A DNA stretch of 64,000 bases from Bacteroidota bacterium (GTDB taxonomy: Bacteria > Bacteroidota > Rhodothermia > Rhodothermales > JBCDJV01). The DNA is taken from positions 9,164 to 73,163 of the forward strand of contig JBCDJV010000007.1 of the NCBI GenBank assembly GCA_038747425.1. The letters run 5' to 3'. Shown piece after piece: positions 1-20,662 of this stretch. The notes under the pieces were generated by a model that saw only the letters and a program-made list of their open reading frames with translations, had not been told where the DNA came from and ran no database searches. A program made the translations under genes and the position numbers. Numbering within the stretch: position 1 is the stretch's first letter; each line of letters starts with the position of its first letter.

Positions 1-593
1 AAAGCATGATGCCACGGGAGCACCGAAAGCAACCGGGCCTGCTCGTCTAGCGCCAGCGCGGGCTCGTGGCTGTGCAGCACCGACATCACGTTGGCGTCGG
101 ACAGGGCCACCCACCGGGGGGCCTTCGTCGTGCCCGAGGTGTGGAGCAGGAACCGGACGTCTGGCTCCGGCGCGTGCTGCATGGTCCGTACGGCGATCGG
201 CTCGGTGCGGGGCCCCGCGCTGCCTTCCGGCACCACCGTGTGCGCGCCCGCACTCAAGGCGATGGCGCACCGGGCATCCACGAGGGTCAGGACGTCCTCG
301 GCGTCAGCCCGTGGGCTGGCCAGCGCCACCGTCAAGCCTTCCCAGAGCGAAGCCAGGAGGACCTGCAAAAACGCCGCTGACGGCGGCAGGGCCACGACCA
401 CCCGATCTCCAGGCTGCAGCCCCATAGCCCGGAACGCCTGGGTCCACCGCCGCATGCCGGTCCACACCGAGGCGGCCGGGATGATCCCATCGGCAAACAG
501 GGACAGCGGATGGGGCTGCCCGTTGAACCGGGGATAGATCCAGGCGCGCCAGGCGTCGCGCGGGTGAGCGGGTGAAGACACAGGCGAAGTCAT
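1..593 (-). CDS. AMP-dependent acyl-CoA ligase, N-terminal part (gene runs off the left window edge); candidate p-coumarate:CoA ligase (pcl-like) for the PYP chromophore
   Basis: Absent from the ORF track because the window edge truncates it. My own minus-strand translation from the ATG at 593 reads MTSPVSSPAHPRDAWRAWIYPRFNGQPHPLSLFADGIIPAASVWTGMRRWTQAFRAMGLQPGDR...DVRFLLHTSGTTKAPRWVALSDANVMSVLHSHE with no in-frame stop. LLHTSGTTKAPR matches the AMP-binding (T/S)SG(T/S)TGxPK motif of adenylate-forming enzymes. It lies about 200 nt downstream of pyp on the same strand. The pcl role is inferred from that adjacency. Confidence 0.75.
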   Translation of the reverse strand, partial: MTSPVSSPAHPRDAWRAWIYPRFNGQPHPLSLFADGIIPAASVWTGMRRWTQAFRAMGLQPGDRVVVALPPSAAFLQVLLASLWEGLTVALASPRADAEDVLTLVDARCAIALSAGAHTVVPEGSAGPRTEPIAVRTMQHAPEPDVRFLLHTSGTTKAPRWVALSDANVMSVLHSHEPALALDEQARLLSVLPWHHA

Positions 594-796: not shown

Positions 797-1165
797 CTAC
801 GCCTTCTTGACGAGCACGTAGTTGGACTGCGTGGCCGGGTCCCGGTACAGGTGCACCTGTACGTTGGTCGGCTTCATCTTGTAGGTGAAGGTGTAGCGGA
901 ACTGGTCGTTCATCGAACCACCGCTCACCCCGTTCTTGAAGCGACCCAGGAAGAGGCGGTTGTTCGTGCACGGAGCCACGTCCGTGAAGAAGTTCTTGCC
1001 GACACACTCGGCCGGGGAAAAGCCCGACATGTTGGACTCGTAGTGGTTGTAGAACTGAACAACCCCGTTGTCGTCAACTTTGACGACGCCAAAGTCCAAG
1101 GTATTCAGCTGCATTTCGGGCATGCGGCTCAGCCCTTCAAGCGTTCCAGGGGGTACGAAGCTCAT
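797..1165 (-). CDS. pyp: photoactive yellow protein (PYP), PAS-fold blue-light photoreceptor
   Basis: The 122-aa ORF aligns along its length with Halorhodospira PYP as I recall it. GKNFFTDVAPCTNN corresponds to GKNFFKDVAPCTDS and contains the chromophore Cys69. YTFTYKMKPTNVQVHL corresponds to YTFDYQMTPTKVKVHM. The Tyr42 and Glu46 equivalents are present (FYNHYES). Confidence 0.93.
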   Translation of the reverse strand: MSFVPPGTLEGLSRMPEMQLNTLDFGVVKVDDNGVVQFYNHYESNMSGFSPAECVGKNFFTDVAPCTNNRLFLGRFKNGVSGGSMNDQFRYTFTYKMKPTNVQVHLYRDPATQSNYVLVKKA

Positions 1166-1261
1166 GATGATCTCCTTATGGGTTGGTTACTGGTTTAAGA
1201 GGTTGTGCGGAGCGTCCGCAGGTGATTGGCGGTCTGTAGGGTAAGGACAGAGCAGGGCGTG

Positions 1262-3046
1262 CTAGGCACGGCTGTAGAGGTCGCGGAGTTGAAGCTCCAT
1301 GTTTTGCATCATCTCGACGGCATCGTCGACGGTCACGGCGCCGACCGTGGCCAGCCGTTCGCGTTCCGCGTAGACACTCACCAATTGTTGTTCCATATTC
1401 TTCAGCAGGGCGATGGCATCGTCCGCTCCGGGGATGCCGTGGTCGGCCAGCTTGCGCTGTTCGGCGCGCAGCGTGCCCAGCTCCACCTCCATGCTGAACA
1501 CCTTCTCCAGCATCTCGGCGTTGGGGAGGGCCCCATCTCCGTGCGGCTGATCGAACTGGCGCTCGCGGTACAGGTCAACGAGCTGGGCTTCCATGCCTTG
1601 GATCATGTCCACCGCCTCGCCGGGCGTAGCCACACCGACCTGCTGGAGATGGCTGAGCTGCTCGTACAAGTCAACCAGCTGCTCCTCCATGTTCTTGAGT
1701 TGATCGGCGGCGGCCTGGACCGAGCTGAGTCCAAGGGTGCCCAGGTTTCCAACGTCTTCGTAGAGGGCCACGAGCTGCTGCTCCATGCTCTCGATCTGCA
1801 GTACCGCATCGGCTGGGGAGGCCAGGCCGCGTTCCATCAGGGGCTTCTGCTCCTCGTAGAGCGCGATGAGCTGCTCCTCCATGCTGTCGAGCTGGGCGGC
1901 CACCTCTTCGGGGTTGGACAGGCCGCGCACCGCTAGGGCCGTTTGGTCTTCGTAGAGCGCGATGAGCTGCTGCTCCATGCTCTGAATCTGGTCGGCCAGG
2001 ACCTCGGCCCCCGGAAGTCCTTGCTCGGTGATGGACTGTTGTTCCTGGTACAGGGTCACGAGCTGCTGCTCCATGCTCTCGAGCTGTGCAGCGGCTTCAC
2101 TCATGGACGTGAGCCCGCGGCCCGTCAGCGCTTGCTTCTCCTCATACAGGTCGGCCAGTTGGGCCTCCAAGCTTTGTAGCTGCTCCAAGGCCTCTTCGGC
2201 CGAGAACAGCCCGCGCGTTGAGAGCAGGGCCTGCTGGGCGTACAGGTCGGACAGTTGGGCCTCCATGCTCTCCATGGCCAGCGCCTGCTCGTTGCCGGAG
2301 CTCTGCTGCTGCTGGTACAGTTCGATGAGCTGGCCTTCCATGCTGCTGACCATCTCCACGGCTTCAGCTACGGTGGCCACTCCCACCGTTCGCAGCTGCT
2401 GCTGCTGCGCGTACAAGTCGGCCAGCTGCTCGGCCATGCTGTCTACCTGCGCTTGTAGTGCGGCCGCCCGGTCGGCATCGGAAGCTCCTTCACTACGCTC
2501 CTGGTAGAGGGCCACGAGCTGCTGCTCCATGTTGGCCAGCGAGGTGTCCAGGTTTCGGATGTGCTCAATGGCATCCTCAAACGAAGCCAGCCCGTACGTG
2601 GTCAGCTTTCCTTGCTGCTCGTACAGGTCCTTCAGCTGCTCCTCCATGTTGGTGAGCGCGTCCTGAAGGGCCGCCTCGGAGCCCGGGTTCGATGAACGCT
2701 CCTCGAGGCGAGTTATCCGGTCACCGAGTCCTTCGAGCGACCGCTGGAGCGTGCGGAGTGCTCCTTCGATGGTCGACAGCGAATCCTGCAGATCTGCCCG
2801 CGTCAGTGCGGGCGTGGGGTGCGCTTGAGCATAATCCGTCATGTCCCTTGATGGCGAAGCGGGTTGCTGTAGCTGAGCCTCTAAGTCACGCACCCTCTTG
2901 ATGATGGAGGATGCCGAGGCAACCCCCAGTTCTCGAGCCAGCAACTGCCGCTCGCGCTCGACGGCGCGAAGAATCTGCTGGACGCGGCCGGCCTCGTTGG
3001 GCGTGCCGAATTCCGTCTCAGAGGTCGTGACTGGCTGAGTCTGCAT
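1262..3046 (-). CDS. 594-aa repeat protein with about 15 tandem copies of a ~32-residue helical repeat (G[LV]xSxxEAxxQLxSMEQQLxxLYxxQ); function unknown
   Basis: Long ORF with GC-rich third codon positions. The motif [SN]ME[EQ]QLxxLY recurs 15 times, mostly at exactly 32-residue spacing. It is acidic and Q/E/L-rich with predicted helical character. It lies directly upstream of pyp on the same strand. Confidence 0.85.
   Translation of the reverse strand: MQTQPVTTSETEFGTPNEAGRVQQILRAVERERQLLARELGVASASSIIKRVRDLEAQLQQPASPSRDMTDYAQAHPTPALTRADLQDSLSTIEGALRTLQRSLEGLGDRITRLEERSSNPGSEAALQDALTNMEEQLKDLYEQQGKLTTYGLASFEDAIEHIRNLDTSLANMEQQLVALYQERSEGASDADRAAALQAQVDSMAEQLADLYAQQQQLRTVGVATVAEAVEMVSSMEGQLIELYQQQQSSGNEQALAMESMEAQLSDLYAQQALLSTRGLFSAEEALEQLQSLEAQLADLYEEKQALTGRGLTSMSEAAAQLESMEQQLVTLYQEQQSITEQGLPGAEVLADQIQSMEQQLIALYEDQTALAVRGLSNPEEVAAQLDSMEEQLIALYEEQKPLMERGLASPADAVLQIESMEQQLVALYEDVGNLGTLGLSSVQAAADQLKNMEEQLVDLYEQLSHLQQVGVATPGEAVDMIQGMEAQLVDLYRERQFDQPHGDGALPNAEMLEKVFSMEVELGTLRAEQRKLADHGIPGADDAIALLKNMEQQLVSVYAERERLATVGAVTVDDAVEMMQNMELQLRDLYSRA
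1265..2660. repeat. tandem 96-bp-period coding repeat array inside the 594-aa ORF
   Basis: On the plus strand the string CCATGC(T) within GAGCTGCTGCTCCATGCTCTC-like units starts at 1783, 1879, 1975 and 2071, which is exactly 96 bp apart. The same unit continues with divergence across the array. Confidence 0.85.
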
Positions 3047-3520
3047 GTATGGCTATCTGCTACGCAACGATGTGTGGTAGAGCGCTCGGCGGTGTCTCGA
3101 GGAGCCCTGAGGCCCCGGTATTCCTTTCCGCTCGCTGCATCTGTTTCCGGTAGTATTTTCCTGCTCGGTGTCGCTCTGGGAAGGGAGGGCGGCGGCCACG
3201 TGCCTCGTGTGCACTCGGCGCCTTCATCCCCTCTGATCGTTGTCCGTTGGGCCAAGTAGCCCCGCTCTCCTCACTTGAAGGGTGTAGCGGAGTGCCCAGC
3301 GCGTGCGGACAGCCCATACCCTACAAAGAATCATGCCAAACTGAGGGCCATGTATATAGGCCCAGCCCGCTCACCTACCGCCCCCTCCTATCACGACGAG
3401 GAAACGTCGACATACATTCTGCTCCTTTTTTTCCGTTGGCACTGTTTCGGCTTGGAATTTGCCTTGCGCTGAGCAACCTACCGTTGAATCGATCACCGCG
3501 ACACATAACGCAACCTTTAA

Positions 3521-3527
3521 AAGGAGG
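3521..3527 (+). promoter_or_regulatory. Shine-Dalgarno-like AAGGAGG upstream of the ATG at 3537
   Basis: The sequence aaaAGGAGGatatctcccATG places the motif 9 nt from the ATG. Confidence 0.4.
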
Positions 3528-3536
3528 ATATCTCCC

Positions 3537-3938
3537 ATGCTACAGCAACTTGAAGACGCCCTGGTCAACGGGGACCTCGACGACCGGTGGACTAGCTCCC
3601 TGGAGACCTGGGACACGACCCCTGTGGAGCGCGCCCAGGCGCTGGCGCTGGTGGCGCAGCTACGCGACCAGTTCATCGAAGCGGCCCGCGACATTGAGGA
3701 CGAGGATGAGCTGCCCACCACGGCGGCGTTGGAGTACATCCAGCTGAAGTCCCGGTGGTACCGTCTCAACACCCAGATGAACTACCAGCTGTTCAAACAG
3801 GGTGAAGCGTCTCCGGACGTCCAGTACCAGGGCACGCTGGTGAGCCAGCTCCTGGCAGAGATCGAGCCGTTCATCGATCCCCAGGATGTGAGCCGGATCA
3901 CGCAATTCCTGACGGATCCGATCATCGTGCCTGTCTGA
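3537..3938 (+). CDS. hypothetical acidic protein (133 aa), divergent from the repeat-protein/pyp unit and upstream of gvpA
   Basis: Internal ATG of track ORF 3459..3938, preceded by AAGGAGG. The sequence begins MLQQLEDALVNGDLDDRWTSSLETWD. I recognise no family. Confidence 0.55.
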   Translation: MLQQLEDALVNGDLDDRWTSSLETWDTTPVERAQALALVAQLRDQFIEAARDIEDEDELPTTAALEYIQLKSRWYRLNTQMNYQLFKQGEASPDVQYQGTLVSQLLAEIEPFIDPQDVSRITQFLTDPIIVPV

Positions 3939-4861: not shown

Positions 4862-5065
4862 ATGGCTATCGAAAAGTCAGTCGCTTCCAGCAGCCTTGCT
4901 GAGGTCGTCGACCGCATCCTGGACAAAGGCATCGTGGTCGATGCCTACGCTCGCGTCTCCCTCGTGGGGATCGAGCTCATCGCCATCGAGGCGCGTGTCG
5001 TCGTCTCGGGCGTCGAGACGTACCTCAAGTACGCTGAGGCCATCGGCCTGACGGCCACGGCCTAA
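4862..5065 (+). CDS. gvpA: gas vesicle structural protein GvpA
   Basis: [63 protein letters not shown] is a canonical 67-aa GvpA. The ATG at 4862 lies inside track ORF 4796..5065. Confidence 0.97.
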
Positions 5066-5094
5066 GGCCTCGCGCCTACGCCATGGCGGAGGGA

Positions 5095-5124
5095 AGGCGC
5101 CCCGACTATCCGGTCGGGGCGCCT
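5095..5124 (+). terminator. perfect 12-bp GC-rich stem-loop 30 nt after the gvpA stop; possible attenuator/partial terminator or mRNA-stabilising hairpin
   Basis: AGGCGCCCCGAC (5095-5106), loop TATCCG, GTCGGGGCGCCT (5113-5124), an exact reverse complement. No U-tract follows, so it is not a classical intrinsic terminator. Confidence 0.45.
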
Positions 5125-5173
5125 CCACCCCCCGCGTCGGCGGTTGCCGCTCACTTTTGTCCTTTCCGGTCCT

Positions 5174-5740
5174 ATGTCACGTCCTTCTACTTCCTATCGC
5201 GAAGCCCTGCGTGCCGATGTAGCACGTCTGCTTGAGGACGTGGCCACGACTCGTAAGGCCCAGGCTGAGGCGCTACGCGCAGAGCGTACCGCGTTCACCG
5301 AAGCCCTGCGCACCTCGGTGTCCAGCGACCTGTCCTCCGAGCGCAGCCGCGTCAAAGACGAGGTCCAGTCGCTCCTGGAGGACATCCGAGCCGAACATGC
5401 GACCCGCCGGGACACCCTGCGCACCGCTCTGCGCACCTTCCGTACGGCGCTCCGCAACGAGCGCGGCAGCGCGTCGGCCTCGGCGCTGGAAGTGGCCTCG
5501 GAGATCGGACAGGCCGCGCCTGCTCCGGCCCCGCCGAGTCCGCCCGTCGAGGAAAACCTGCTTCGCATCAAAGGGATCGGGCCCAACACCCTGGAGCGCC
5601 TGCGTCAAGCGGGCATCCACTCCTTTGCTGACCTGGCGGCCAGCACCCCAGCCGACCTTCATCAGGCGCTAGGCGGCTACGCCAAGCTGATCAACGTGGA
5701 GGAGTGGCTCTCCGAAGCCCGCAGATACGCCCAATCCTAG
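5174..5740 (+). CDS. hypothetical protein with an internally duplicated helical N-terminal region and a C-terminal helix-hairpin-helix motif; sits in the position often held by gvpC
   Basis: ATG at 5174 within track ORF 5144..5740. It contains repeated EALRA/EALRT/TALRT motifs. DVARLLEDV...EALRT parallels EVQSLLEDI...TALRN about 47 residues later. The C-terminus LLRIKGIGPNTLERLRQAGIHSFADLA is a typical HhH (GIGP) motif. Confidence 0.7.
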   Translation: MSRPSTSYREALRADVARLLEDVATTRKAQAEALRAERTAFTEALRTSVSSDLSSERSRVKDEVQSLLEDIRAEHATRRDTLRTALRTFRTALRNERGSASASALEVASEIGQAAPAPAPPSPPVEENLLRIKGIGPNTLERLRQAGIHSFADLAASTPADLHQALGGYAKLINVEEWLSEARRYAQS

Positions 5741-5870
5741 GTCCCTCTGCCGATTCAGTCCGGCCGAAAAACAGCGTGATGACCCTCTCTCTTTTTTTGG
5801 CCCCCTGTATCTGCTAGACGAACCGCTAGCCTTCACTCCGCTCTTCCCGCTACGCACCCCGCTCGCCTCT

Positions 5871-6581
5871 ATGCACCTTGGTCAACGCAAGATTCGCTCG
5901 GCTGGCCGCTCCAGCGGCAGCATCGAGATCACCCTGCCCGTGCCTCTACAGGCCCTGGAGGGGGTGCCTTGTCGGATCAACCTACGGGACGGCGTCCGGC
6001 CGGAGGTGGTCCTCCAACCGGACCTCTCTGAGGCTCAGACCCTGTTCCAGACGCTCTGGTCGCACCTCCGCACGGGGCTGCGCTCCGTAGACGACATCGG
6101 CGACTTCGCGCTGAGCCAGTTCACGGTGGCCCTGCTGCCGGTGCGCTTCTGGCAGGAACGGCCGCCCCTCTTCTACACGGACGCCTTGCTGACCCTGCAT
6201 GGCACCGGCGATGAGCGCGCCGACGCCCTCACGCGCCTGTTGGCCGGTCTCGGCGTAGGGGCCGCTCAGGCCCTTGGCTTCAGCGGAGCCCTCGGCCTAG
6301 GCCTGGGCGATGCCCTGAGCTTCGTGGCCACAGGCCGCTCCGCCGGATGGGGCGCTGAGTTCGAACGCGGGTTGGCGCACCGTTTGTACTGGGGTGAGAC
6401 CGCACCCGCCTACACGCCCCTGGACGAGGCCTTCTGGCAGGAGGCGGCTCCGCGCCTGGTCCACCTGACCGACGTGTTCTGGTCCTGGCACACCGACCCC
6501 GATCGCTACGACACCGACCGTGAACGCTGGTACCGCGCCCTGACCGCCGAGATGCGCTACGCGCCCCTGCCGATTTCCTAA
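5871..6581 (+). CDS. hypothetical protein (236 aa), possible N-terminal AbrB/SpoVT-like swapped-hairpin domain
   Basis: The ORF lies in the operon orientation between gvpA and gvpN. The N-terminus RKIRSAGRSSGSIEITLPVPLQALEGVPCRINLRDGVRPEVVLQP resembles the AbrB/MazE pattern; this is a weak judgement by eye. Confidence 0.55.
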   Translation: MHLGQRKIRSAGRSSGSIEITLPVPLQALEGVPCRINLRDGVRPEVVLQPDLSEAQTLFQTLWSHLRTGLRSVDDIGDFALSQFTVALLPVRFWQERPPLFYTDALLTLHGTGDERADALTRLLAGLGVGAAQALGFSGALGLGLGDALSFVATGRSAGWGAEFERGLAHRLYWGETAPAYTPLDEAFWQEAAPRLVHLTDVFWSWHTDPDRYDTDRERWYRALTAEMRYAPLPIS

Positions 6582-6629
6582 CCCACGCGCCGCCTCTCGC
6601 GATGCCTTCAATCCCGCTGCCGTAACCCT

Positions 6630-7604
6630 ATGGATGTGCTAGACCCCGAAGCCCCCACTGCCGTGGCCGCCGCCGCCCCCGGCGCCATCCACGTCCAGCC
6701 GCGTCCCGACTTCGTCGAGACCCCGGCCGTGCAGGCGCTCACCGAGCGGTCCCTGACCTACCTGTGGGCGGGCTTTCCCATTCATTTTCGCGGACCCGCC
6801 GGGACCGGCAAGACCACGCTGGCTCTCCACGTGGCCGCACACATCGGCCGGCCCGTCATGTTCATGACAGGCGACGAAGAGCTGTCCTCGGCGGACCTCA
6901 TCGGGTCGGAGAGCGGGTACCGCTTCAAGCGGGTCGTGGACCGGTTCATCCACACCGTCACCAAGTACGAAGAAGATGCGACCCAGCGCTGGGTGGACCA
7001 ACGCCTCACCATTGCTTGTCGCCAAGGCTACACGCTCGTCTACGACGAGTTCACCCGCTCTCGGCCTGAGGCCAACAACCCGCTGCTGACGGTCCTGGAG
7101 GAACGCGTGCTGATCCTCCCCAAGACGAACCGGGAGGAGGCCTACATTCGGGTCCATCCTGAATTCCGGGCCATCTTTACCAGCAACCCGGAGGAATATG
7201 CCGGGGTGCACCGCTCCCAGGATGCCCTGTGCGACCGGATGGTGACCATCGACCTCGACTTCAGCGACCCGGACACCGAACGCTCGATCACCGTCTCGCG
7301 CTCGGGCATTACCGCCGATCGGGCCGAGCGCATCGTGCAGCTCGTGCGCGCCTTCCGAGACCAAGGCACCCCGATGCAACTGCCCACCCTGCGGGCCTGC
7401 ATCATGATCGCCCGGGTGGCCCACATGCAACAGATCGAGCCCGCCAGCACCGATGAGCGCTTCGTCCAGCTGTGCTACGACGTGCTGGCCTCCAAGACGA
7501 CCTCCACCATGGTCTCCGTCCCGGAGCGCCAGAAGGTCTACGACCAACTCCATCGCCTCATCCATCTACACTGCGACGCCCAGACGGCGCCCTCTAGCCT
7601 ATGA
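6630..7604 (+). CDS. gvpN: gas vesicle AAA+ ATPase GvpN
   Basis: Walker A FRGPAGTGKTTLALHVA and Walker B-like TLVYDEFTRSRPE. The length (324 aa) and overall pattern fit GvpN (AAA_5 type). It lies within the gvp cluster. Confidence 0.9.
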   Translation: MDVLDPEAPTAVAAAAPGAIHVQPRPDFVETPAVQALTERSLTYLWAGFPIHFRGPAGTGKTTLALHVAAHIGRPVMFMTGDEELSSADLIGSESGYRFKRVVDRFIHTVTKYEEDATQRWVDQRLTIACRQGYTLVYDEFTRSRPEANNPLLTVLEERVLILPKTNREEAYIRVHPEFRAIFTSNPEEYAGVHRSQDALCDRMVTIDLDFSDPDTERSITVSRSGITADRAERIVQLVRAFRDQGTPMQLPTLRACIMIARVAHMQQIEPASTDERFVQLCYDVLASKTTSTMVSVPERQKVYDQLHRLIHLHCDAQTAPSSL

Positions 7605-7960
7605 AACGTCCCCGTCCCCGCGGCATGCGCGACATCCGCACGGCGCAGAACCTGCTGAACCGATCCAAGCCTAGCGGCCGTGCGCAAGCCGTCACGCAAC
7701 TGGCCCGCCTCGAGCACGAGCGCATGCGCCTCGAACGCGAGATGAAGCTCTGGGCCCAGAAATACACCCAGACCAAGAACCGGCTGCACGGCGTCCTCAA
7801 ACAGCTGTCCGACCTGGAAAACCTGTCGGACGAGCTGGCCGCCCGCGAGGGCCTCACCCCGACCAACAAACAGCTGCGCAAGCTCGCCCAGAGCGGCCTG
7901 CCGTCACGCAAGCGGGCCAGCCACGATCCGTCCCCGGCCGACTTCACGTTCGAATACTAA
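7601..7960 (+). CDS. basic coiled-coil protein (119 aa), translationally coupled to gvpN; possibly GvpV-like
   Basis: Its start ATG overlaps the gvpN stop (ATGA at 7601-7604). The segment ARLEHERMRLEREMKLWAQKYTQTKNRLHGVLKQLSDLENL is heptad-like. The GvpV assignment rests only on my memory of a similar coiled-coil pattern. Confidence 0.6.
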   Translation: MKRPRPRGMRDIRTAQNLLNRSKPSGRAQAVTQLARLEHERMRLEREMKLWAQKYTQTKNRLHGVLKQLSDLENLSDELAAREGLTPTNKQLRKLAQSGLPSRKRASHDPSPADFTFEY

Positions 7961-7993
7961 CCCGGCGCTCCCGCGCCGCTACCCCGCACATCC

Positions 7994-8566
7994 ATGGCAG
8001 ACTCTGATAAGCAGAAGGACCCCCGCGACGGGATCCACGTCAACCTCGACCTCGGCTTCGGTGGCCTCTTCAAAGGCCTCACGGACATGGTAAACAACCT
8101 GACCGAGCTCTCCGAAAAGGCCGAACACCTCCAGCAAGAAGCCGGGGCTGACGGCGAGCGCACGTTCCGCTTCGACGGCCTCAACATCAACGGCCTGGGC
8201 AAAGACGCCGAAGGGGTGGTGGGCATCCGCATCCGCACCCTGGACGGCGGCCAGCCGGTCGTCGAGCGCTTCGGCAACATCCGGCCCACCGACGAAGGCC
8301 CCGAGGTGGCCGACGTGCGCGAGCCCCTCGTGGATGTGTTCGATGAGCCCACCGAGCTGCTGCTTGTGGCCGAGCTCCCCGGCGTCAGCGAATCCGACAT
8401 CAGCCTGCGCGTGGAGGACGACATCCTGATCCTCGAAACCGAAGGCGACCGCCGCTACGCCAAAGAGGTCTTGCTCCCGGCGGCCGTGGACGCCACCACG
8501 CTGCAGCACACCTACACCAACGGCATCCTGGAAGTCCGTCTCCAAAAAGCTACGCCAGACGCATGA
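7994..8566 (+). CDS. Hsp20/alpha-crystallin family small heat-shock protein (GvpH-like position)
   Basis: The C-terminal alpha-crystallin domain reads LLLVAELPGVSESDISLRVEDDILILETEGDRRYAKEVLLPAAVDATTLQHTYTNGILEVRLQK. Confidence 0.85.
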   Translation: MADSDKQKDPRDGIHVNLDLGFGGLFKGLTDMVNNLTELSEKAEHLQQEAGADGERTFRFDGLNINGLGKDAEGVVGIRIRTLDGGQPVVERFGNIRPTDEGPEVADVREPLVDVFDEPTELLLVAELPGVSESDISLRVEDDILILETEGDRRYAKEVLLPAAVDATTLQHTYTNGILEVRLQKATPDA

Positions 8567-9345
8567 GCACCCTCCCAGACCCCATGGCGGCTCCGGCCGT
8601 TGACACCGCTGGGCAGTACGTGTACTGCTTCATCCGCTCCTCCGAGCCCGTCACGTTCTCGTCGACTGGGATCGGCGAGCTGAAAGGCACGGTCCGCGCC
8701 ATCCCGTACCGCGACATCGCCGTGGTGGTGAGCGAATCGCCGGTGATGATCTACCCGAGCCGCCGCCGCAATATGATGCCGCACACGCGGGTCCTGGAGG
8801 AGGTGATGGCCACGCACACCATCCTGCCGGCCCGCTTTAGCACGGTGGTCCCCCCCGAGGACGACCTCGGCGAGGACATCATTGCACCCCGCTACGAGCA
8901 GCTCGACGGCCTCTTGCACGAGATGGACGGCAAGGTGGAGCTCGGCCTACGGGTGATGTGGCATGACGGCCTCGTCTTTCAGGAGATCGTGGAGGAGCAG
9001 GATGCCATCCGCGCCCTCCGCGATCAGCTGGTGGGCCGCTCGCCCGAGGAAACGCACTATGACCGCATGCGGCTCGGAGAGATGATCGAGGCCGCCATCG
9101 AGGGCAAGCGTGCCGCCGAGGCCGCCGCCTTGCTGGACCGCCTCCGTCCCTTCGCCGCCGATGTCCGGGAGAACGACGTCCTAGGGGATCGCATGGTGCT
9201 GAACACCGCCTTCCTCGTGGATCAAGCCCAGGTGCCGGCCTTCGACGCCGCCCTGGAGGCCATCGACGCTGAGCAGAGCCACCGGATGAGCTTCACCTAC
9301 GTCGGTCCCGTGCCCCCTTACAATTTCGTCAGCATTGTGCTGTGA
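8563..9345 (+). CDS. gvpF: gas vesicle protein GvpF/GvpL family (paralogue 1)
   Basis: The start overlaps the Hsp20 stop (ATGA). Family hallmarks are present: YVYCFIRS, DIAVVVSE, HTRVLEEVMATHTILPARFSTVV and a C-terminal GPVPPYNF. Confidence 0.88.
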   Translation: MSTLPDPMAAPAVDTAGQYVYCFIRSSEPVTFSSTGIGELKGTVRAIPYRDIAVVVSESPVMIYPSRRRNMMPHTRVLEEVMATHTILPARFSTVVPPEDDLGEDIIAPRYEQLDGLLHEMDGKVELGLRVMWHDGLVFQEIVEEQDAIRALRDQLVGRSPEETHYDRMRLGEMIEAAIEGKRAAEAAALLDRLRPFAADVRENDVLGDRMVLNTAFLVDQAQVPAFDAALEAIDAEQSHRMSFTYVGPVPPYNFVSIVL

Positions 9346-9349
9346 TGAC

Positions 9350-9601
9350 ATGGGCTTCTTCACCACGCTCCTGACCTTTCCCGTCTCCGGGCCACTGCAC
9401 GGGGTGCGATGGATCGCACAGCACATGGCCGAGCAGGCGGAGCAGGAGTTTTACGACCCCGCTGTCATCAAAGAGCAGCTCCGCGCCCTTGAATACAGCT
9501 ATGAGCTCGGCGAAGTCGACGACGACACCTTCGACGCCCTCGAAGACGCCCTCATGGAACGCCTTGAAGCCAGCCGCGCGCAGCCCAAGCGTACCCCCTG
9601 A
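9350..9601 (+). CDS. gvpG: gas vesicle protein GvpG
   Basis: MGFFTTLLTFPVSGPLHGVRWIAQHMAEQAEQEFYDPAVIKEQLRALEYSYELGEVDDDTFDALEDALMERL matches the GvpG pattern. The start could alternatively be 9335. Confidence 0.85.
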   Translation: MGFFTTLLTFPVSGPLHGVRWIAQHMAEQAEQEFYDPAVIKEQLRALEYSYELGEVDDDTFDALEDALMERLEASRAQPKRTP

Positions 9602-9631
9602 TCCAACCTTCTCGACCCAACCTCTGACGCC

Positions 9632-9892
9632 ATGATGAACGGACCCCAGGCCGCCCAGGCGGCCAAGCAGCAACTGATGGACCTCACCGGCCACCCCGCC
9701 GACAGCGTGTCGGCCATGCGCCGCGATGACGACGGCTGGGCCATCACGGTCGAGCTGGTCGAGCTCAAGCGGATCCCGGAGTCGTCTGATCTCCTGGCCA
9801 CCTACGAGGCCAGTGTCAACGACGAGGGCATCCTGATGACCTACCAACGCACCCGCCGCTACCAACGCCATCAGGTGATGGAAGCCGGCTGA
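9632..9892 (+). CDS. gvpO: gas vesicle protein GvpO
   Basis: LTGHPADSVSAMRRDDDGWAITVELVELKRIPESSDLLATYEASVNDEGILMTYQRTRRYQR matches the conserved GvpO core as I recall it. Confidence 0.82.
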   Translation: MMNGPQAAQAAKQQLMDLTGHPADSVSAMRRDDDGWAITVELVELKRIPESSDLLATYEASVNDEGILMTYQRTRRYQRHQVMEAG

Positions 9893-9979
9893 TGAATGGA
9901 GAATGGGACCTGGTGAGGGGCACGCCCCCCTTCACCAACCACCATTCATCGTTCACCACTCACCACTCTTTCCTTCTCC

Positions 9980-10336
9980 ATGCAGCATACCATCCAAGGC
10001 TCTAGCCTAGGCGACATCCTGGAGCGCGTGCTCGATAAGGGCATCGTGATCGCCGGGGATATCAGCATCTCAATCGCCGAGATCGAGCTGCTGCGTATCC
10101 GCGTGCGGTTGCTCGTAGCTTCGGTGGACAAAGCCATGGAGATCGGCATCAACTGGTGGGAGAGCGACCCCTTCCTGGCTCGGCGCGCCCGCACCCTGGA
10201 AGAGGAGAACAAAGAACTGATCGACCGGCTCCGGCGCCTAGAGACGGTGCTGCGTGACCGCTATCCCGAGACGGCCTCCCTGCTGGCCGCCACCACGCCT
10301 AACCCCGGTGCTCCCCGTGTCCCTGACCGACCCTAA
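9980..10336 (+). CDS. gvpJ: gas vesicle protein GvpJ (GvpA/J/M family)
   Basis: SLGDILERVLDKGIVIAGDISISIAEIELLRIRVRLLVASVDKAMEIGINWWESDP is a GvpA-like core with the longer C-terminal tail typical of GvpJ. Confidence 0.88.
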   Translation: MQHTIQGSSLGDILERVLDKGIVIAGDISISIAEIELLRIRVRLLVASVDKAMEIGINWWESDPFLARRARTLEEENKELIDRLRRLETVLRDRYPETASLLAATTPNPGAPRVPDRP

Positions 10337-10340
10337 CCCT

Positions 10341-12524
10341 ATGGCACCCACTGCGGACCCAGCAGACCCCGCGCCCGCCGCCGCCCCCGGCCCCTTGTCT
10401 CTGCGCGTAGCCGAGGCGCGTGCCAAAGACGTGGGCCGCGGCCTCGTGCGGGTGGATCCCGATGACCTGGCCCGCCTGGACGCCGCCATCGGCGACGTGG
10501 TCGAGATCACCGGCCAGACCACCACGGTGGCCCGCCTCATGCCGGCCTTCGCGGCGGAGCGCGGCCAAGCACTCGTCCAGATGGACGGCATCCTGCGCGG
10601 CAACGCCGACACCGGACTGGGCGAGACCGTGACCCTGCGCCGTGTGGAGGCGCCCGTGGCCCGCACCGTCACGCTCCAGGGCCCCGGCGCCGTCCGACGC
10701 GGCCAAGGCCGTCACTTGGCTCGGCTGCTGGATGGCCTCCCGGTGTGCCCAGGCGACCAGGTTCGCGTAGACCTCATCGGCACCCGCGCCGAGACTTTCC
10801 GCGTGACGCAGACCGCCCCGAGCGGCGCCGTCCGCATCGGCCCGACCACCACCGTGCGCGTTGAAAAACCCGCTCAGAAGGGACGCAAGACCCCCTCGGC
10901 CCCGCCGCCCGAGGCCATCACCTACGAAGACATCGGCGGGCTCGGCTCCGCGCTCCAGCGGATCCGCGAGATGATCGAGCTGCCGCTGCGCTACCCCGAA
11001 GTGTTTGACCACCTGGGCATCGACGCCCCGAAAGGGGTGCTGCTCTACGGCCCCCCCGGCACCGGCAAGACGCTGATCGCCCGGGCCGTGGCCCACGAAA
11101 CCAACGCCCACTTCATCGTGGTCAACGGCCCCGAGGTCATCGACAAGATGTACGGGGCCAGCGAGGCTCAGCTCCGCAAGCTGTTCGAAGAGGCGAGCCG
11201 CAAGGCCCCCTCCATCCTCTTCATCGACGAGCTAGACGCCATCGCCCCCAAGCGCGACGACCTCAGCGGCGACCGCCAGGTGGAGCGGCGGGTGGTGGCT
11301 CAGCTCTTGGCCCTCATGGACGGCCTCCAGAGCCGCGGCCACGTCATCGTGGTGGCCGCCACCAACCTCCCTGACAGCCTCGATCCCGCCCTCCGGCGTC
11401 CCGGTCGCTTCGACCGCGAGATCTCGATCGGGGTGCCGGACCGCGAAGGCCGGGCCCACATCCTGGAGATCCACAGCCGCGGCATGCCCCTGGCGGACGA
11501 CATCGACCTCGATCATCTGGCCGGGCGCACGCATGGCTACGTGGGCGCCGACCTGGAGGCCCTTTGCCGCGAGGCCGCCATGCGCGCCCTGCGCCGCCTG
11601 CTGCCCGACCTCGACCTGGCCAGCGCCTCCATTCCCTACGATCAGCTGGCCCAGCTCACCGTCACCGCCGCTGACTTCGAGACGGCTCTGGCTGAGATCG
11701 AACCGTCGGCCATCCGCGAGATCTTTACCGAGATCCCTAACGTCACCTGGGCGGACGTAGGCGGGCTCGACGCCGTGAAGGAGGTGCTGCAGGAGACCGT
11801 GCAGTGGCCCCTTCAGCACCCCGACCTGTTCGAGCGCGTGGGCACCACGCCGCCCCGGGGCATCTTGCTCCACGGCCCGCCCGGCACCGGCAAAACCCTG
11901 CTGGCCAAGGCAGCGGCCCGCGAGAGCGAGGTCAACTTCATCTCCGTGAAGGGCCCTGAGCTGCTCTCGCAGTGGGTGGGCGCCTCCGAGAAAGGCGTAC
12001 GCGAGGTGTTTCGCAAAGCCCGTCAGGCGGCGCCCTGCCTCATCTTCCTGGACGAGGCCGACGCGCTGATCCCGCGCCGGACGGGGCAGCACAACCCCGT
12101 GACCGAGCGCGTTGTCAACCAGTTCCTGGCGGAGATGGACGGCATCGAGGCACTGAACGGCGTGCTGGTGCTGGCCGCTACCAACCGGCCGGACCTCATC
12201 GACCCTGCGTTGCTGCGCCCGGGCCGCTTCGAGCTTCAGATCGGCCTCGAGGCCCCCGATGCGGTGGGGCGGCGCGCCATCCTGGAGGTGCACACCCGCC
12301 GGCAACCGCTGGCGGCCGATGTGGACCTGGAGGCCCTGGCCACCCGCACGGAGGGGCTGACCGGCGCTGAGCTGGCGGGCCTCTGCCGCGAGGCCGCCAT
12401 GCGCGCCCTGCGCGCCCACGTACATCGGGAGGCTAGCGCCGATGAGCCGCTGGCGGTGAGTGGTATGGATTTTGACGCCGCACTCGACACGCTCCGTGCA
12501 TCCTCTACGCCTTCATCCTCCTGA
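10341..12524 (+). CDS. Cdc48/p97/VCP-type double-ring AAA+ ATPase embedded in the gvp operon
   Basis: ATG at 10341 within track ORF 10254..12524, 5 nt after the gvpJ stop. It has a Cdc48 N-domain-like region ([26 protein letters not shown]...VEITG). D1 has [17 protein letters not shown] and [10 protein letters not shown]2 has [17 protein letters not shown] and LIFLDEADA. The GRFD arginine-finger regions occur in both modules. Confidence 0.92.
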
Positions 12525-12528
12525 CCCC

Positions 12529-13581
12529 ATGCCGCTCTACCTGCATGGCCTGACCCCCGTGGGCGGGCCCGCGCTGTACCGCGTCCCCGACGCCGACGGC
12601 CCCGTCTACACCATCGAGCACCAGGGCATGGCCGCCGTGGTGCGCCCCACGGCCCAGCGCACGTACCAGCACCTCGAACGCCGCGAGGCGCTGCTTCACC
12701 TGGTGCTGCACCAGCGGGTGGCCGAGGCCATCCAGGCCGAGACCCCCCTCCTGCCCGTCCAGTTCGGCACCGTGCTGGACAACGAAGAGCAGGTGCGCAT
12801 GCTGCTGAGCCTGGGAGCCGATCGTTTTGCAGAAGCACTCCGGCAGTTGGACGGCCTCGTGCAGATGGAGATCACCGTGCTCTGGGATCTGGAGCACGTG
12901 TTTGCCGAGATCCGCCATGAGCCCGCAGTGGCGGCCCTCCAGCACAACCTCACGACGTGGCCAGCGGACGAGCAAGAGGCCGGTCGCGTCCAGCTCGGCC
13001 AGATTGTAAAAGAGCGCCTGGAGTACCGCCGCGCCCGCCTCAAAGCGCCCATCGACCAAGCTCTTCAGGCCGTAGCCACGGCGTCGGAGGCGCTACCGAT
13101 CCTGGACGATCGGATGGTCACGGGTCTGACGCTGCTGCTCAACGATCACCAGGAAGACGAGCTCGATGACGCGCTGACCACCCTCGACGCCGCCCATGGG
13201 GATCTGCTGACGTTCAAGTGCGTGGGACCCATGGCGCCGCACCGCTTTGCCCAGGTTCGGGTGGAGATGGTGGACGGGGCTATCCTCAACCAAGCCCGGG
13301 CCTTGCTGCGCCTGCCAGCGGGCCCGACCACGCTGGCCGACGTCAAGCGCGCCTACCGCCTCCGAGCCGGCGAGCTGCACCCAGACCATAATCCGTCCAC
13401 AGACGAAGCCACGATGCAGGCCCTGCATGATGCCTTCACGCTCATCACCACCTTCGTGGAAGGTCGGCTGGGCGCGCCCGCGCCTGGTGAGGCGCCGCAC
13501 TGCTCACTCGATCTGGCGGCTCAGCCTCACCTCCTGTACCATCTGGACCTGTCGGTACGCCGCTCAGCCTTGGCGGCCTAG
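12529..13581 (+). CDS. GvpF/GvpL family protein (paralogue 2) fused to a C-terminal DnaJ J-domain
   Basis: ATG at 12529, 5 nt after the Cdc48 stop. The N-terminal part carries the GvpF/L pattern (LYLHGL, GMAAVVRP, HQRVAEAIQAETPLLPVQFGTVL, GPMAPHRF). The C-terminal part LADVKRAYRLRAGELHPDHNPSTDEATMQALHDAFTLI is a J-domain, with the HPD tripeptide at nt 13378-13386. Confidence 0.88.
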   Translation: MPLYLHGLTPVGGPALYRVPDADGPVYTIEHQGMAAVVRPTAQRTYQHLERREALLHLVLHQRVAEAIQAETPLLPVQFGTVLDNEEQVRMLLSLGADRFAEALRQLDGLVQMEITVLWDLEHVFAEIRHEPAVAALQHNLTTWPADEQEAGRVQLGQIVKERLEYRRARLKAPIDQALQAVATASEALPILDDRMVTGLTLLLNDHQEDELDDALTTLDAAHGDLLTFKCVGPMAPHRFAQVRVEMVDGAILNQARALLRLPAGPTTLADVKRAYRLRAGELHPDHNPSTDEATMQALHDAFTLITTFVEGRLGAPAPGEAPHCSLDLAAQPHLLYHLDLSVRRSALAA

Positions 13582-13634
13582 CCCAGGTCCAACGCTGTCT
13601 TTCTCTTTCGCCTGCTAGCCATCCGTTTGCCTCC

Positions 13635-13841
13635 ATGGAGACCCAGATTCAACACCTCATGGCCCAGCTTCGGGATCAACTGGTCACGCTGTCTCAGGAT
13701 GAGGTCCAGCAGATCGTCCAGGAAGCCCGTACCGAGGCCATGGCCGAAGCCAGAGAGATGCTGAAAGAGCACCTCTTGAAGTCGATCCTCGAGCAGGCCG
13801 TGGAGGCCTCTCAGCCTGCGCTGCATAGCGCCACGTCCTGA
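13635..13841 (+). CDS. small helical hypothetical protein (68 aa) inside the gvp operon
   Basis: The ORF is in the operon orientation with plausible codon usage. Its segment QQIVQEARTEAMAEAREMLKEHLLKSILEQAVE resembles the N-terminus of the next ORF. Confidence 0.5.
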   Translation: METQIQHLMAQLRDQLVTLSQDEVQQIVQEARTEAMAEAREMLKEHLLKSILEQAVEASQPALHSATS

Positions 13842-13850
13842 CCGGAAGCC

Positions 13851-14747: not shown

Positions 14748-14751
14748 ACGC

Positions 14752-15852: not shown

Positions 15853-15864
15853 CCTCGCTGCCCC

Positions 15865-16119: not shown

Positions 16120-16167
16120 CGCAGCCCCGTTTTCGTGCCCGGCCCGTGGGCGGACCGCCCCCGACGC

Positions 16168-17222: not shown

Positions 17223-17345
17223 AACAATGCCCCCGGTACGGACACCCACATTCATGAAGAGGCGGTGGGGCCCTGCGGCAGCTCGCAACCAACCGAGGGC
17301 TCCATCGTTACAAGTTTCCCGATCGATACACGGACTTGTTGGCGC

Positions 17346-20607: not shown

Positions 20608-20662
20608 GATCCCAGCAGGCGGACCCGCAGACAAACGGAGAGGTGAACGGTGCCGCGCCAGC

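What the first reader, a model, noticed from the sequence alone, without database searches (positions are those of the whole stretch)
1262..3046. 594-aa protein built from ~15 tandem 32-residue repeats, co-oriented immediately upstream of pyp: GvpC-type scaffold analogue or PYP partner?
The motif [SN]ME[EQ]QLxxLY recurs 15 times. For about 10 consecutive units the spacing is exactly 32 residues (96 bp; anchors at 1783, 1879, 1975 and 2071). The consensus is roughly G[LV]xSxxEAxxQLxSMEQQLxxLYxxQxxLxxx. The operon has no recognisable gvpC. Classical GvpC proteins are also built from tandem ~33-residue helical repeats that bind periodically to the GvpA shell. The architecture therefore parallels GvpC, although I see no sequence similarity to cyanobacterial GvpC as I remember it. 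Alternatively, its position directly before pyp suggests a signalling partner or scaffold for PYP. I do not recognise the repeat family.
Basis: partly seen in the sequence, partly recalled or inferred. Interest (0 to 1): 0.8.

Follow-up and report, generated by a model that had tools for sequence, protein, structure and literature searches.

The report
Helical-repeat protein partnered with PYP photoreceptor
The 594-residue repeat protein is real and belongs to a rare, undescribed family that is almost always fused to a dead copy of the blue-light sensor PYP and sits just upstream of a working PYP gene, so it is a candidate for PYP's long-sought partner rather than a GvpC-like gas-vesicle shell protein.

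Summary
ORF 1262-3046(-) encodes a 594-aa acidic, all-helical protein with 15 copies of an [SNG]ME.QL..LY unit. Its period is 32 residues (autocorrelation 1.19; best of 500 shuffles -0.15).

It is not GvpC. There is no PF01304 hit, no BLASTP or hhalign similarity to Nostoc or Halobacterium GvpC, and none of GvpC's conserved Phe/Arg pattern. It also lies in a divergent operon with pyp, pCL and TAL.

The family is rare: 110 hits among 1.84 billion representative proteins. It has no Pfam, NCBIfam or PDB relative. All 37 first-search homologues, and nearly all full-length later ones, end in a PYP-like domain that has lost Tyr42, Glu46 and Cys69. In 22 of 23 gene modules a true, Cys69-bearing pyp follows directly. 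A conserved 133-aa helical protein (3537-3938) is usually encoded divergently.

The window protein is the exception: it has no PYP-like domain, and the true pyp starts 96 nt after its stop codon.

Most homologue loci show no gvp gene within 10 kb. However, a Salinivenus MAG, two syntenic contigs (one a Longibacter sp. MAG) and, as a lone GvpL/F gene, Longibacter salinarum again place this module beside gvp genes.

Best reading: a PYP-associated scaffold or transducer, probably with buoyancy as the output here. No interaction has been shown.

The parts
1262..3046 (-). Gene for the 594-aa acidic (pI 4.2) all-helical tandem-repeat protein
   Evidence: ORF and translation. GC3 of 0.80 is typical of coding sequence in this genome. 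The identical protein is called on Logan contig L001. 37 and 110 homologues were found in the two searches. pI and charge.
1265..2692 (-). Repeat array, residues 119-594: 15 units with window consensus xRGLxSxxEAxxQLxSMEQQLxxLYxEQxxLx
   Evidence: Motif positions and unit listing. Position-by-position profile of window units and of 728 family units.
1544..2311 (-). Most regular block: eight units spaced exactly 32 residues (96 nt) apart, residues 246-501
   Evidence: Spacings. TRF 96-nt period. Unit-to-unit identities.
2693..3046 (-). N-terminal 118 residues: helices with a degenerate copy of the unit (LARELGVASASSIIKRVRDLEAQL), matching the conserved N-terminus of homologues (ELGTSDPNEVLARVQTLKRQ)
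   Evidence: Sequences. AF2 helices 16-40, 45-60 and 83-118.
1166..1261 (-). 96-nt spacer between the repeat gene and pyp. It holds a second in-frame stop (TAA 1187-1189) and a Shine-Dalgarno sequence AAGGAGA (1171-1177), and no terminator on the coding strand
   Evidence: Sequence and in-frame translation. Terminator scan. Together with the TAG stop at 1262-1264, these show two separate genes rather than a broken fusion.
797..1165 (-). pyp: 122-aa photoactive yellow protein with Tyr42, Glu46 and Cys69 retained. It is 50-58% identical to the true PYPs that follow the homologues
   Evidence: TIGR02373 E=1.6e-35. Key-residue alignment. tblastn identities.
1..593 (-). 5' part of the p-coumarate-CoA ligase gene (pCL), running off the window. 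TAL follows on the longer contig
   Evidence: L001 gene calls AMP-binding and Lyase_aromatic. tblastn with the L003 pCL gives 50% identity over window 3-593.
3047..3536 (.). 490-bp divergent intergenic region between the repeat gene and the 133-aa gene
   Evidence: Sequence. No sigma-70-type promoter match was found there. Not analysed further.
3537..3938 (+). Conserved divergent partner gene: a 133-aa helical protein of unknown function ('orf159' in my notes; the true start is ATG 3537, preceded by AAAGGAGGA)
   Evidence: A homologue lies in the same divergent position upstream of the repeat gene in 14 further loci. The family has 213 members, all hypothetical, with no Pfam or PDB match. AF2 gives pLDDT 94.8 and six helices. 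No fold match in PDB.
4863..17222 (+). Adjacent gas-vesicle cluster (context and probable output): gvpA, HHH/apolipoprotein-like 198-aa gene, gvpN, Hsp20, gvpF/L x4, gvpG, gvpO, gvpJ, CDC48-type AAA, gvpA/J-like, gvpK
   Evidence: Pfam and NCBIfam hits. gvpA start codon.

Best explanation
The ORF encodes a cytoplasmic, strongly acidic rod or ribbon built from about 18 amphipathic helices. There is one ~27-residue helix per 32-residue unit, with heptad-spaced hydrophobic residues and a conserved face M-E-x-Q-L-x-x-L-Y, and the helices are joined by short Gly-Leu-x-Ser loops. It belongs to an undescribed family whose defining property is genetic coupling to photoactive yellow protein (PYP). I propose that it is a PYP-associated scaffold or signal transducer. 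It is made together with PYP from one transcript and holds PYP in a complex. In most relatives the contact would be PAS-PAS pairing with their own C-terminal chromophore-less PYP-like domain. In this organism that domain is missing, so the contact would be direct. The light-induced change in PYP would then alter what the helical array binds. The conserved small helical protein encoded divergently is a likely third component. In this genome the probable output is formation or control of the neighbouring gas vesicles, that is, light-dependent buoyancy. Shown: the repeat architecture, the family, the fusion, the gene order and the recurrent gvp neighbourhood. Inferred: physical binding to PYP, the role of the 133-aa protein and the output.
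For: (1) Fusion evidence. All 37 word-search homologues, and 78 of the 139 proteins collected over both searches (nearly all of those >=340 aa), end in a domain that matches TIGR02373 (E 1e-14 to 1e-22) but lacks Tyr42, Glu46 and Cys69. (2) Gene order. In 22 of 23 modules with downstream sequence, one or two true Cys69-bearing pyp genes follow directly. The window pyp is 50-58% identical to those true PYPs and only 33-44% to the fused domains. (3) Operon. The order is repeat gene, pyp, pCL, TAL in the window, L003/L109 and L006. The spacer is 96 nt with no terminator on the coding strand. (4) The 133-aa gene is in the same divergent position in 14 further loci, although the repeat proteins are only ~27% identical. 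(5) The conserved residues are polar as well as hydrophobic and lie on one helix face, which suggests a repeated binding surface. (6) Output. A gvp cluster whose GvpA is 78% identical to the window's lies next to the module in a Salinivenus MAG, with the same layout. GvpG, ArsA and HHH-protein genes flank it in L005 and L014. A lone GvpL/F gene lies next to the partner gene in Longibacter salinarum. pyp next to gvp genes is also reported for Rhodobacter capsulatus and Loktanella (PMC3646047). (7) PYP's downstream partner is an acknowledged gap (PMC12826048, PMC9664959).
Against: There is no direct evidence of any protein-protein contact; the case rests on association. The window protein lacks the very domain (pseudo-PYP) that makes the link obvious in its relatives. 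Most contexts come from one family, Salinibacteraceae, so the loci are not independent. One locus (L007) has the fused gene but no true pyp, and one (L108) keeps the 133-aa gene without the module. The AF2 model is only moderately confident (pLDDT 74, pTM 0.30), so the overall shape is unknown. No output domain (kinase, DNA-binding, GGDEF, MCP) is present.
Confidence: 0.6

Rival explanations
1. GvpC-type analogue: the helical repeats bind periodically along GvpA ribs on the outside of the gas vesicle and stiffen it.
For: It has tandem ~32-residue helical units next to a gvp cluster that lacks a recognisable gvpC. A fully helical 32-residue stretch would span about 48 A at the 1.5 A per residue used by Huber et al., close to the ~50 A covered by four GvpA monomers (PMC9994262). 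The module recurs beside gvp genes in Salinivenus and Longibacter.
Against: No PF01304 hit even at E<=10. BLASTP best E=1.2 and hhalign probability 0.12% against Nostoc and Halobacterium GvpC. GvpC's conserved Phe11, Phe33 and Arg19 are absent; the whole protein has only 5 Phe. Each helix is only ~27 residues and is broken by a Gly loop. The gene is in the pyp operon on the opposite strand. 17 of 23 homologue modules show no gvp gene in the fetched flanks. A better-placed candidate follows gvpA directly: the 198-aa apolipoprotein-like/HHH protein at 5144-5740, which is conserved in the Salinivenus gvp cluster. Many gvp clusters work without GvpC, for example Bacillus megaterium.
Confidence: 0.08
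2. Gas-vesicle adaptor: the repeat array docks on vesicles or on Gvp assembly proteins and carries PYP (or the pseudo-PYP domain) there, so that light acts directly on vesicle assembly, clustering or stability.
For: It combines the two robust associations, with PYP and with gvp clusters in two lineages whose repeat proteins are only ~27% identical. The layout 'PYP <- repeat | -> 133-aa gene ... -> gvp' is the same in both.
Against: Modules persist, with well-conserved repeats, at loci where no gvp gene lies within 10 kb (L002, L004, L008-L012, L015, L016). Genomes with two modules have only one next to gvp genes (L011 versus L017). There is no similarity to any Gvp protein.
Confidence: 0.15
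3. PYP maturation factor: a scaffold or chaperone that holds apo-PYP for attachment of p-coumaroyl-CoA made by the co-transcribed pCL and TAL.
For: The gene is in the same operon as pyp, pCL and TAL in the window, L003/L109 and L006. A chromophore-less PYP-like domain could mimic apo-PYP.
Against: Most modules have no pCL or TAL nearby. In the pathway as summarised in PMC12826048, p-coumaryl-CoA reacts with apoPYP without any further factor being named. A protein of 600-1300 residues with variable repeat number is an odd chaperone for a 14-kDa client.
Confidence: 0.07
4. Generic structural coiled-coil or cytoskeletal protein whose position beside pyp is inherited synteny with no shared function.
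For: Only weak, sub-threshold matches to SMC, Rad50 and MukB coiled-coil regions. Most loci come from one bacterial family.
Against: A covalent fusion to a PYP-derived domain in ~80 proteins is not explained by synteny. Gene order is kept between lineages whose repeat proteins share only ~27% identity. The family was found only where PYP is.
Confidence: 0.05

Closest known systems
GvpC (gas vesicle protein C; Pfam PF01304 Gas_vesicle_C)
   Same: A tandem array of ~32-33-residue alpha-helical units, hydrophilic and acidic, encoded near gvpA. One face of each helix is conserved.
   Different: No sequence or profile similarity. The conserved residues differ: M, E, Q, L, L, Y here against L4, F11, L12, R19, Q26, L30, F33 in GvpC. 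Helices are interrupted by Gly loops every unit. The gene belongs to the pyp operon. The family tracks pyp, not gvp.
Multidomain PYP proteins with a C-terminal PYP domain (e.g. MCP-PYP fusions) and Ppr/Ppd (PYP-phytochrome-kinase or GGDEF)
   Same: Most family members are long helical proteins that end in a PYP-type PAS domain. That placement matches the MCP-PYP fusions described in PMC12826048.
   Different: The fused domain has lost Tyr42, Glu46 and Cys69, so it cannot carry the chromophore in the known way. No MCP, HAMP, kinase, phytochrome or GGDEF domain is present. The published PYP surveys I could read do not mention this family, and PMC12826048 analysed only Cys69-containing proteins. 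The window protein has no PAS domain at all.
Photoreceptor-transducer pairs such as sensory rhodopsin with Htr, or Leptospira PYP with an adjacent sensor-less chemoreceptor
   Same: A small photoreceptor is encoded next to a long helical protein that lacks its own sensor, which suggests signal relay through a complex (PMC9664959).
   Different: No transmembrane segments and no methyl-accepting signalling domain, so the output chemistry is unknown.
Amphipathic-helix repeat proteins (spectrin repeats, apolipoproteins/apolipophorin III, phasins)
   Same: Heptad-patterned amphipathic helices of ~25-30 residues joined by short turns.
   Different: No significant Pfam or Foldseek match to any of them. 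The polar motif S-M-E-x-Q-L-x-x-L-Y is conserved at 25-30% overall identity, which is unusual for purely structural repeats.

Membership tests
GvpC (PF01304, Gas_vesicle_C) | Match to the Pfam GvpC repeat model | tested here: not met
   No PF01304 hit among the 14 families listed at E<=10; the best hit was a sub-threshold MerR coiled-coil match at E=0.0036. HMMER's filters drop many matches above E~0.1.
GvpC (PF01304, Gas_vesicle_C) | 33-residue repeat with conserved Leu4/12/30, Phe11/33, Arg19 and Gln26 (Huber et al. 2023, PMC9994262) | tested here: not met
   The period is 32. The conserved positions are G3, S16, M17, E18, Q20, L21, L24, Y25. No Phe or Arg column is conserved, and the protein has 5 Phe in total. 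hhalign of unit profiles gives probability 0.12%. BLASTP against Nostoc and Halobacterium GvpC gives a best E of 1.2.
GvpC (PF01304, Gas_vesicle_C) | Gene inside the gvp operon, typically directly after gvpA | tested here: not met
   The gene is on the opposite strand, 1.8 kb from gvpA, and co-transcribed with pyp-pCL-TAL. In Nostoc and Halobacterium gvpC follows gvpA directly. Here that position holds the 198-aa HHH protein.
GvpC (PF01304, Gas_vesicle_C) | Homologues restricted to gvp-containing loci or genomes | tested here: not met
   gvp-family genes were found in the flanks of 5 of 23 modules (window, L005, L014, L017/L104, and GvpL/F only in L023), and are inferred by synteny for a sixth, L013. 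The other 17 show none. Whole genomes could not be checked.
GvpC (PF01304, Gas_vesicle_C) | Binds the outside of the GvpA shell and raises critical collapse pressure | not testable with these tools
   Requires vesicle purification, proteomics and pressure-collapse assays.
Unnamed PYP-associated 'SME.QL..LY' repeat family (defined here) | Tandem units with the conserved S-M-E-x-Q-L-x-x-L-Y face | tested here: met
   15 units in the window protein. 728 units across 139 family proteins give the same profile. E-values to homologues reach 3.7e-48.
Unnamed PYP-associated 'SME.QL..LY' repeat family (defined here) | C-terminal PYP-like PAS domain lacking Tyr42, Glu46 and Cys69 | tested here: not met
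   The window protein ends ...NMELQLRDLYSRA. Two in-frame stops and only 96 nt separate it from the true pyp. No second PYP-like sequence exists in the 64-kb window. The window protein is therefore an atypical, unfused member.
Unnamed PYP-associated 'SME.QL..LY' repeat family (defined here) | True (Cys69) pyp immediately downstream; conserved ~140-aa helical gene divergently upstream | tested here: met
   pyp is at 797-1165 with Y42, E46 and C69. The 133-aa gene is at 3537-3938. The same arrangement is seen in L002-L005, L008-L010, L012-L015, L017, L020 and L023.
Photoactive yellow protein / PAS (TIGR02373, PF00989) | PAS fold with p-coumaric acid site (Tyr42, Glu46, Cys69) | tested here: not met
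   The 594-aa protein has no PAS or PYP match. It is a neighbour of PYP, not a PYP.
SMC/Rad50/MukB-type coiled-coil proteins | Score above family cut-off, with ATPase head domains | tested here: not met
   Only 19-23 bits against cut-offs of 300-700, covering coiled-coil segments. The JetC/MukB-like hit is 16.8 bits. No P-loop is present.

The most novel reading that the evidence does not exclude
The repeat protein is the physical bridge between a blue-light receptor and a buoyancy organelle. Its periodic helices would dock on the gas-vesicle shell or its assembly machinery, while it holds PYP (or, in relatives, a pseudo-PYP that pairs with PYP). Vesicle formation, clustering or stability would then be switched by light at the protein level. 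The module in Salinibacter-type loci without neighbouring gvp genes would be a re-wired remnant of that ancestral supercluster.
Probability: 0.12. Interest if true: 0.9.

Novelty: categorically new. Interest (0 to 1): 0.66.

Why it matters
PYP has been a model photoreceptor for decades, yet recent surveys still list its downstream signalling chain as a gap (PMC12826048, PMC9664959). Here a compact three-gene module (a small helical protein, the repeat protein with or without a dead PYP domain, and true PYP) is conserved across halophilic Bacteroidota. That group includes relatives of Salinibacter ruber, whose PYP has already been characterised. This turns 'what does PYP talk to?' into a direct experiment in that clade. 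A PYP-derived domain that has lost all three chromophore residues yet stays fused to the repeats suggests a receptor/pseudo-receptor pairing not described for PYP. The module also lies beside gas-vesicle clusters in two lineages whose repeat proteins share only about 27% identity. That adds support to the older suggestion, from Rhodobacter capsulatus, that PYP controls buoyancy. It could interest groups engineering gas vesicles as light-switchable reporters.

Tried and rejected
(1) Pfam, NCBIfam and PADLOC scans of the repeat protein gave only sub-threshold coiled-coil noise.

(2) phmmer against PDB sequences gave nothing below E=0.02.

(3) AF2 with a 38-sequence alignment gave pLDDT 74 and pTM 0.30. 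Foldseek against PDB gave no hit below E=0.2 and TM scores around 0.1, so the overall fold is undefined.

(5) The search for related loci with the full-length alignment failed because no stretch was conserved enough. I replaced it with a pseudo-PYP-domain alignment. Its single pattern, [ML][DN][AT][RA]FPYTF, biases the genome scan towards fused, Salinibacteraceae-type members and cannot find unfused ones.

(6) I spent the one metagenome scan on the Salinivenus-type GvpG, hoping to extend L005. It returned generic GvpG loci instead. The extension came from looking up the 133-aa homologue P0242.

(7) The broken-fusion idea (repeat ORF and pyp share a reading frame) is rejected: there are two stops, pyp has its own Shine-Dalgarno sequence, and the window pyp groups with true PYPs.

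(8) The 133-aa partner has no Pfam, NCBIfam or PDB sequence hit, and its confident AF2 model matches only generic helical bundles.

(9) Rfam found nothing in the regions flanking the module.

(10) The literature search found no description of the family. The original S. ruber PYP paper (Memmi 2008) is not in the library, so I could not check whether it mentions the upstream ORF.
Full report

The minus-strand ORF 1262-3046 encodes 594 residues. An independent Logan assembly carries the identical protein. A relaxed motif, [SNGT][MLI][EA].[QE]L..[LV][YR], occurs 15 times. Eight consecutive units (residues 260-484) are spaced exactly 32 residues apart.

BLOSUM62 autocorrelation peaks at lags 32, 64 and 96 (1.19, 0.79, 0.41). 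The best value over all lags in 500 shuffles was -0.15. TRF reports the 96-nt period. The regular units are about 42% identical as protein and about 54% as DNA, so the array is old and not an assembly artefact.

The protein is acidic (pI 4.2) and rich in L, A, Q and E. I saw no signal peptide or hydrophobic segment in the sequence by eye; no predictor was run.

The window has 65.9% G+C. Its proteins are deposited by NCBI as 'MAG: Bacteroidota bacterium'.

**Anatomy of the unit**

AF2 with a 38-sequence alignment gave pLDDT 74 and pTM 0.30. It predicts 18 helices, essentially one ~27-residue helix per 32-residue unit, separated by 2-5-residue breaks at the 'RGLxS' position.

A profile of 13 window units and 728 family units shows heptad-spaced hydrophobic positions. 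It also shows an S/D-x-x-E pattern at the predicted helix start, which I read as an N-cap. The nearly invariant residues S16, M17, E18, Q20, L21, L24 and Y25, followed by E-(R/K)-E, lie on one helix face. Conserved polar residues at only 25-30% overall identity suggest a repeated interaction surface rather than plain packing.

The overall shape is unknown. Foldseek against PDB gave nothing better than E=0.2 and TM about 0.1.

**Gene context in the window**

The order on the minus strand is repeat gene, a 96-nt spacer, pyp (797-1165), then pCL (starting at 593 and running off the window). TAL follows on the longer contig.

The repeat ORF and pyp share a reading frame, but they are separate genes. 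Two in-frame stops lie between them (TAG 1262-1264 and TAA 1187-1189), and pyp has its own AAGGAGA ribosome-binding site. No terminator was found on the coding strand between them. Terminator-like hairpins lie after pyp.

The window PYP retains Tyr42, Glu46 and Cys69.

A 133-aa gene (3537-3938) is encoded divergently, preceded by AAAGGAGGA. After a 920-bp non-coding gap comes a full gvp cluster on the plus strand: gvpA, a 198-aa HHH protein, gvpN, Hsp20, four gvpF/L genes, gvpG, gvpO, gvpJ, a CDC48-type AAA protein and gvpK.

**The family**

No Pfam, NCBIfam, PADLOC or PDB-sequence relative exists above noise. The family is rare. The word-indexed search found 37 homologues. An exhaustive HMMER scan found 110 among 1.84 billion cluster representatives.

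- Every one of the 37 homologues, and 78 of the 139 proteins collected in total, ends in a ~120-residue PYP-like domain. The 78 include nearly all proteins of 340 residues or more; most of the rest are short contig fragments, and two of the longer ones (P0054, P0059) show a divergent PYP-like C-terminus by eye.
- That domain matches TIGR02373 at E 1e-14 to 1e-22. JGI labels many of these proteins 'photoactive yellow protein'.
- In an alignment with Halorhodospira PYP (sequence supplied from memory, used only for residue numbering), none of the 78 domains keeps Tyr42 or Cys69, and only 2 keep Glu46. Position 69 is Ser, Gly or Ala.
- These are therefore chromophore-less pseudo-PYP domains.
- The window protein is the exception. 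It ends directly after its last repeat, and no second PYP-like sequence lies in the 64-kb window.

**Conserved gene order**

I examined 23 modules that have downstream sequence. They come from Salinibacter sp. 10B, Salinivenus, Longibacter and unnamed hypersaline Bacteroidota MAGs, and include two high-GC contigs that carry the window's closest relatives.

- In 22 of the 23, one or two true pyp genes follow the repeat gene directly. Those checked carry Tyr42, Glu46 and Cys69, and all are 50-58% identical to the window PYP.
- The exception is L007, where the gene after the fusion is missing.
- pCL and TAL follow in L003/L109 and L006, as in the window.
- The 133-aa gene has homologues (30-34% identity) in the same divergent position in 14 further loci.
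- That family has 213 members, all 'hypothetical'. Its AF2 model is confident (pLDDT 95, six helices) but matches only generic helical bundles.

The window pyp is orthologous to the true PYPs (55% identity to the Salinibacter sp. 10B gene). It is only 33-44% identical to the fused domains. The window lineage therefore lost, or never acquired, the pseudo-PYP domain.

**Is it GvpC?**

No.

- No PF01304 match, even at E<=10.
- BLASTP against annotated GvpC from Nostoc sphaeroides and Halobacterium salinarum gives a best E of 1.2.
- hhalign of repeat-unit profiles gives probability 0.12%.
- The residues that define the GvpC repeat (Leu4/12/30, Phe11/33, Arg19, Gln26; Huber et al. 2023) have no counterpart here.
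- In both reference organisms gvpC follows gvpA directly. Here that position holds a 198-aa protein with apolipoprotein-like helices and an HHH/DUF4332 C-terminus. A homologue of that protein opens the gvp cluster in Salinivenus, making it the better positional candidate for a shell-associated protein.
- Lacking gvpC is not unusual; Bacillus megaterium lacks it.

**A gas-vesicle link does exist at module level**

Seventeen of the 23 modules show no gvp-family gene in the fetched flanks. However:

- In Salinivenus MAG contig CAZTDC010000016.1 the layout mirrors the window. It reads PYP <- repeat-pseudoPYP | -> 133-aa homologue | two unknown genes | -> HHH protein, GvpG, ArsA-type ATPase, GvpA/J, GvpK, GvpJ, GvpA (78% identical to the window GvpA), GvpN.
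- The syntenic loci L005 and L014 (Longibacter sp.) show the ArsA, GvpG and HHH part at their edge. L013 shows only the two unknown genes of that block.
- In Longibacter salinarum a lone GvpL/F gene sits between the 133-aa homologue and TerC. In Salinibacter sp. 10B the 133-aa homologue abuts TerC directly. This pattern is what decay of an ancestral gvp cluster at that position would leave.
- An ArsA-family ATPase also ends the Nostoc gvp cluster.
- pyp next to gvp genes has been noted in Rhodobacter capsulatus and Loktanella (PMC3646047, citing Kyndt 2004).

**Interpretation**

The strongest inference is functional coupling to PYP. It rests on fusion to a PYP-derived domain, on invariant gene order, and on co-transcription with pyp and its chromophore enzymes.

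I propose an elongated helical scaffold or transducer that holds PYP. In relatives the contact would be pseudo-PYP/PYP pairing; here it would be direct. The scaffold would relay PYP's light-induced change, with the small helical protein as a probable third component and gas-vesicle formation as the probable output in this genome.

None of the contacts is shown. That the modules persist where no gvp gene is nearby argues against a purely vesicle-structural role. A vesicle-docking adaptor remains possible at about 12-15%.

**Novelty**

The two recent PYP surveys I could read do not mention this repeat family or gas vesicles. The 2025 survey restricted its analyses to Cys69-containing proteins. 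The 2022 survey noted Cys69 substitutions in the Salinibacter/Leptospira clade but not this architecture. Both name the missing downstream partner of PYP as an open question.

The paper library is incomplete; the original S. ruber PYP paper is not held. The claim is therefore 'not found', not 'never described'.

Noticed in passing
window 3537-3938 (+): A 133-aa helical protein encoded divergently from the repeat gene. Homologues (213, all 'hypothetical') hold the same position in 14 other loci. AF2 gives pLDDT 95 with six helices and no informative fold match. One contig (L108) keeps it beside TerC without the repeat/PYP genes, and a Sericytochromatia MAG contig (L019) has a weak partial match to it between two true pyp genes with no repeat gene in the fetched stretch.
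   Followed up: yes
window 5144-5740 (+): A 198-aa protein directly after gvpA. It has helical, weakly apolipoprotein/phasin-like N-terminal two-thirds and a C-terminal HHH_5/DUF4332 domain. A 355-361-aa homologue opens the gvp cluster next to the PYP module in Salinivenus, L005 and L014. It is a better positional candidate than the 594-aa protein for a GvpC-like shell protein.
   Followed up: partly
L104 13120-18566 (Salinivenus MAG CAZTDC010000016.1); L023 11263-11985 (Longibacter salinarum): Salinibacteraceae genomes carry gvp genes beside the PYP module. Salinivenus has a real cluster: GvpG, ArsA-type ATPase, GvpA/J, GvpK, GvpJ, GvpA (78% identical to the window GvpA) and GvpN. L. salinarum has only a lone GvpL/F gene between the 133-aa homologue and TerC, which looks like a remnant.
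   Followed up: partly
window 3939-4862: A 920-bp stretch upstream of gvpA with no convincing ORF (the 213-aa ORF at 4029-4670 fails the GC3 test) and no Rfam match. It contains a terminator-like hairpin at 4255-4274 and may be a long regulatory leader for the gvp operon.
   Followed up: partly
window 10254-12524, 12460-13581, 7994-8566 and 17265-19733 (+): The gvp cluster includes a CDC48-type double-AAA ATPase, a GvpL/F protein with a sub-threshold DnaJ-like C-terminal match, and an Hsp20. It ends with an 822-aa GAF-domain protein of otherwise unknown function, a possible cluster regulator.
   Followed up: no
window 20663-21376 (-): A 237-aa protein with a PycTM (Pycsar effector, 2TM) domain: Pfam E=1.5e-27, PADLOC E=1.2e-20. 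No recognisable cyclase lies next to it; the neighbours at 19786-20634 (MBL fold) and 21385-22344 have no PADLOC hit.
   Followed up: partly
L107 5591-9181 (-); L007 4241-4616: In L107 the 1196-aa gene call is a frameshift merge of a P0003-like repeat/pseudo-PYP gene with the downstream true pyp, probably an assembly error. In L007 the true pyp is absent: only 375 bp separate the fused gene from the response-regulator gene.
   Followed up: yes
L013 and L014 (two modules each); L011 plus L017 and L009 plus L018 (same MAGs): Several Salinibacteraceae genomes carry two or three paralogous repeat/pseudo-PYP + PYP modules of different sizes. Roughly 850-1000-aa forms lie next to TerC and a response regulator, or next to gvp genes. 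A ~547-aa form lies next to a ~1200-aa PAS/GAF protein and a response regulator, followed by pCL and TAL.
   Followed up: partly
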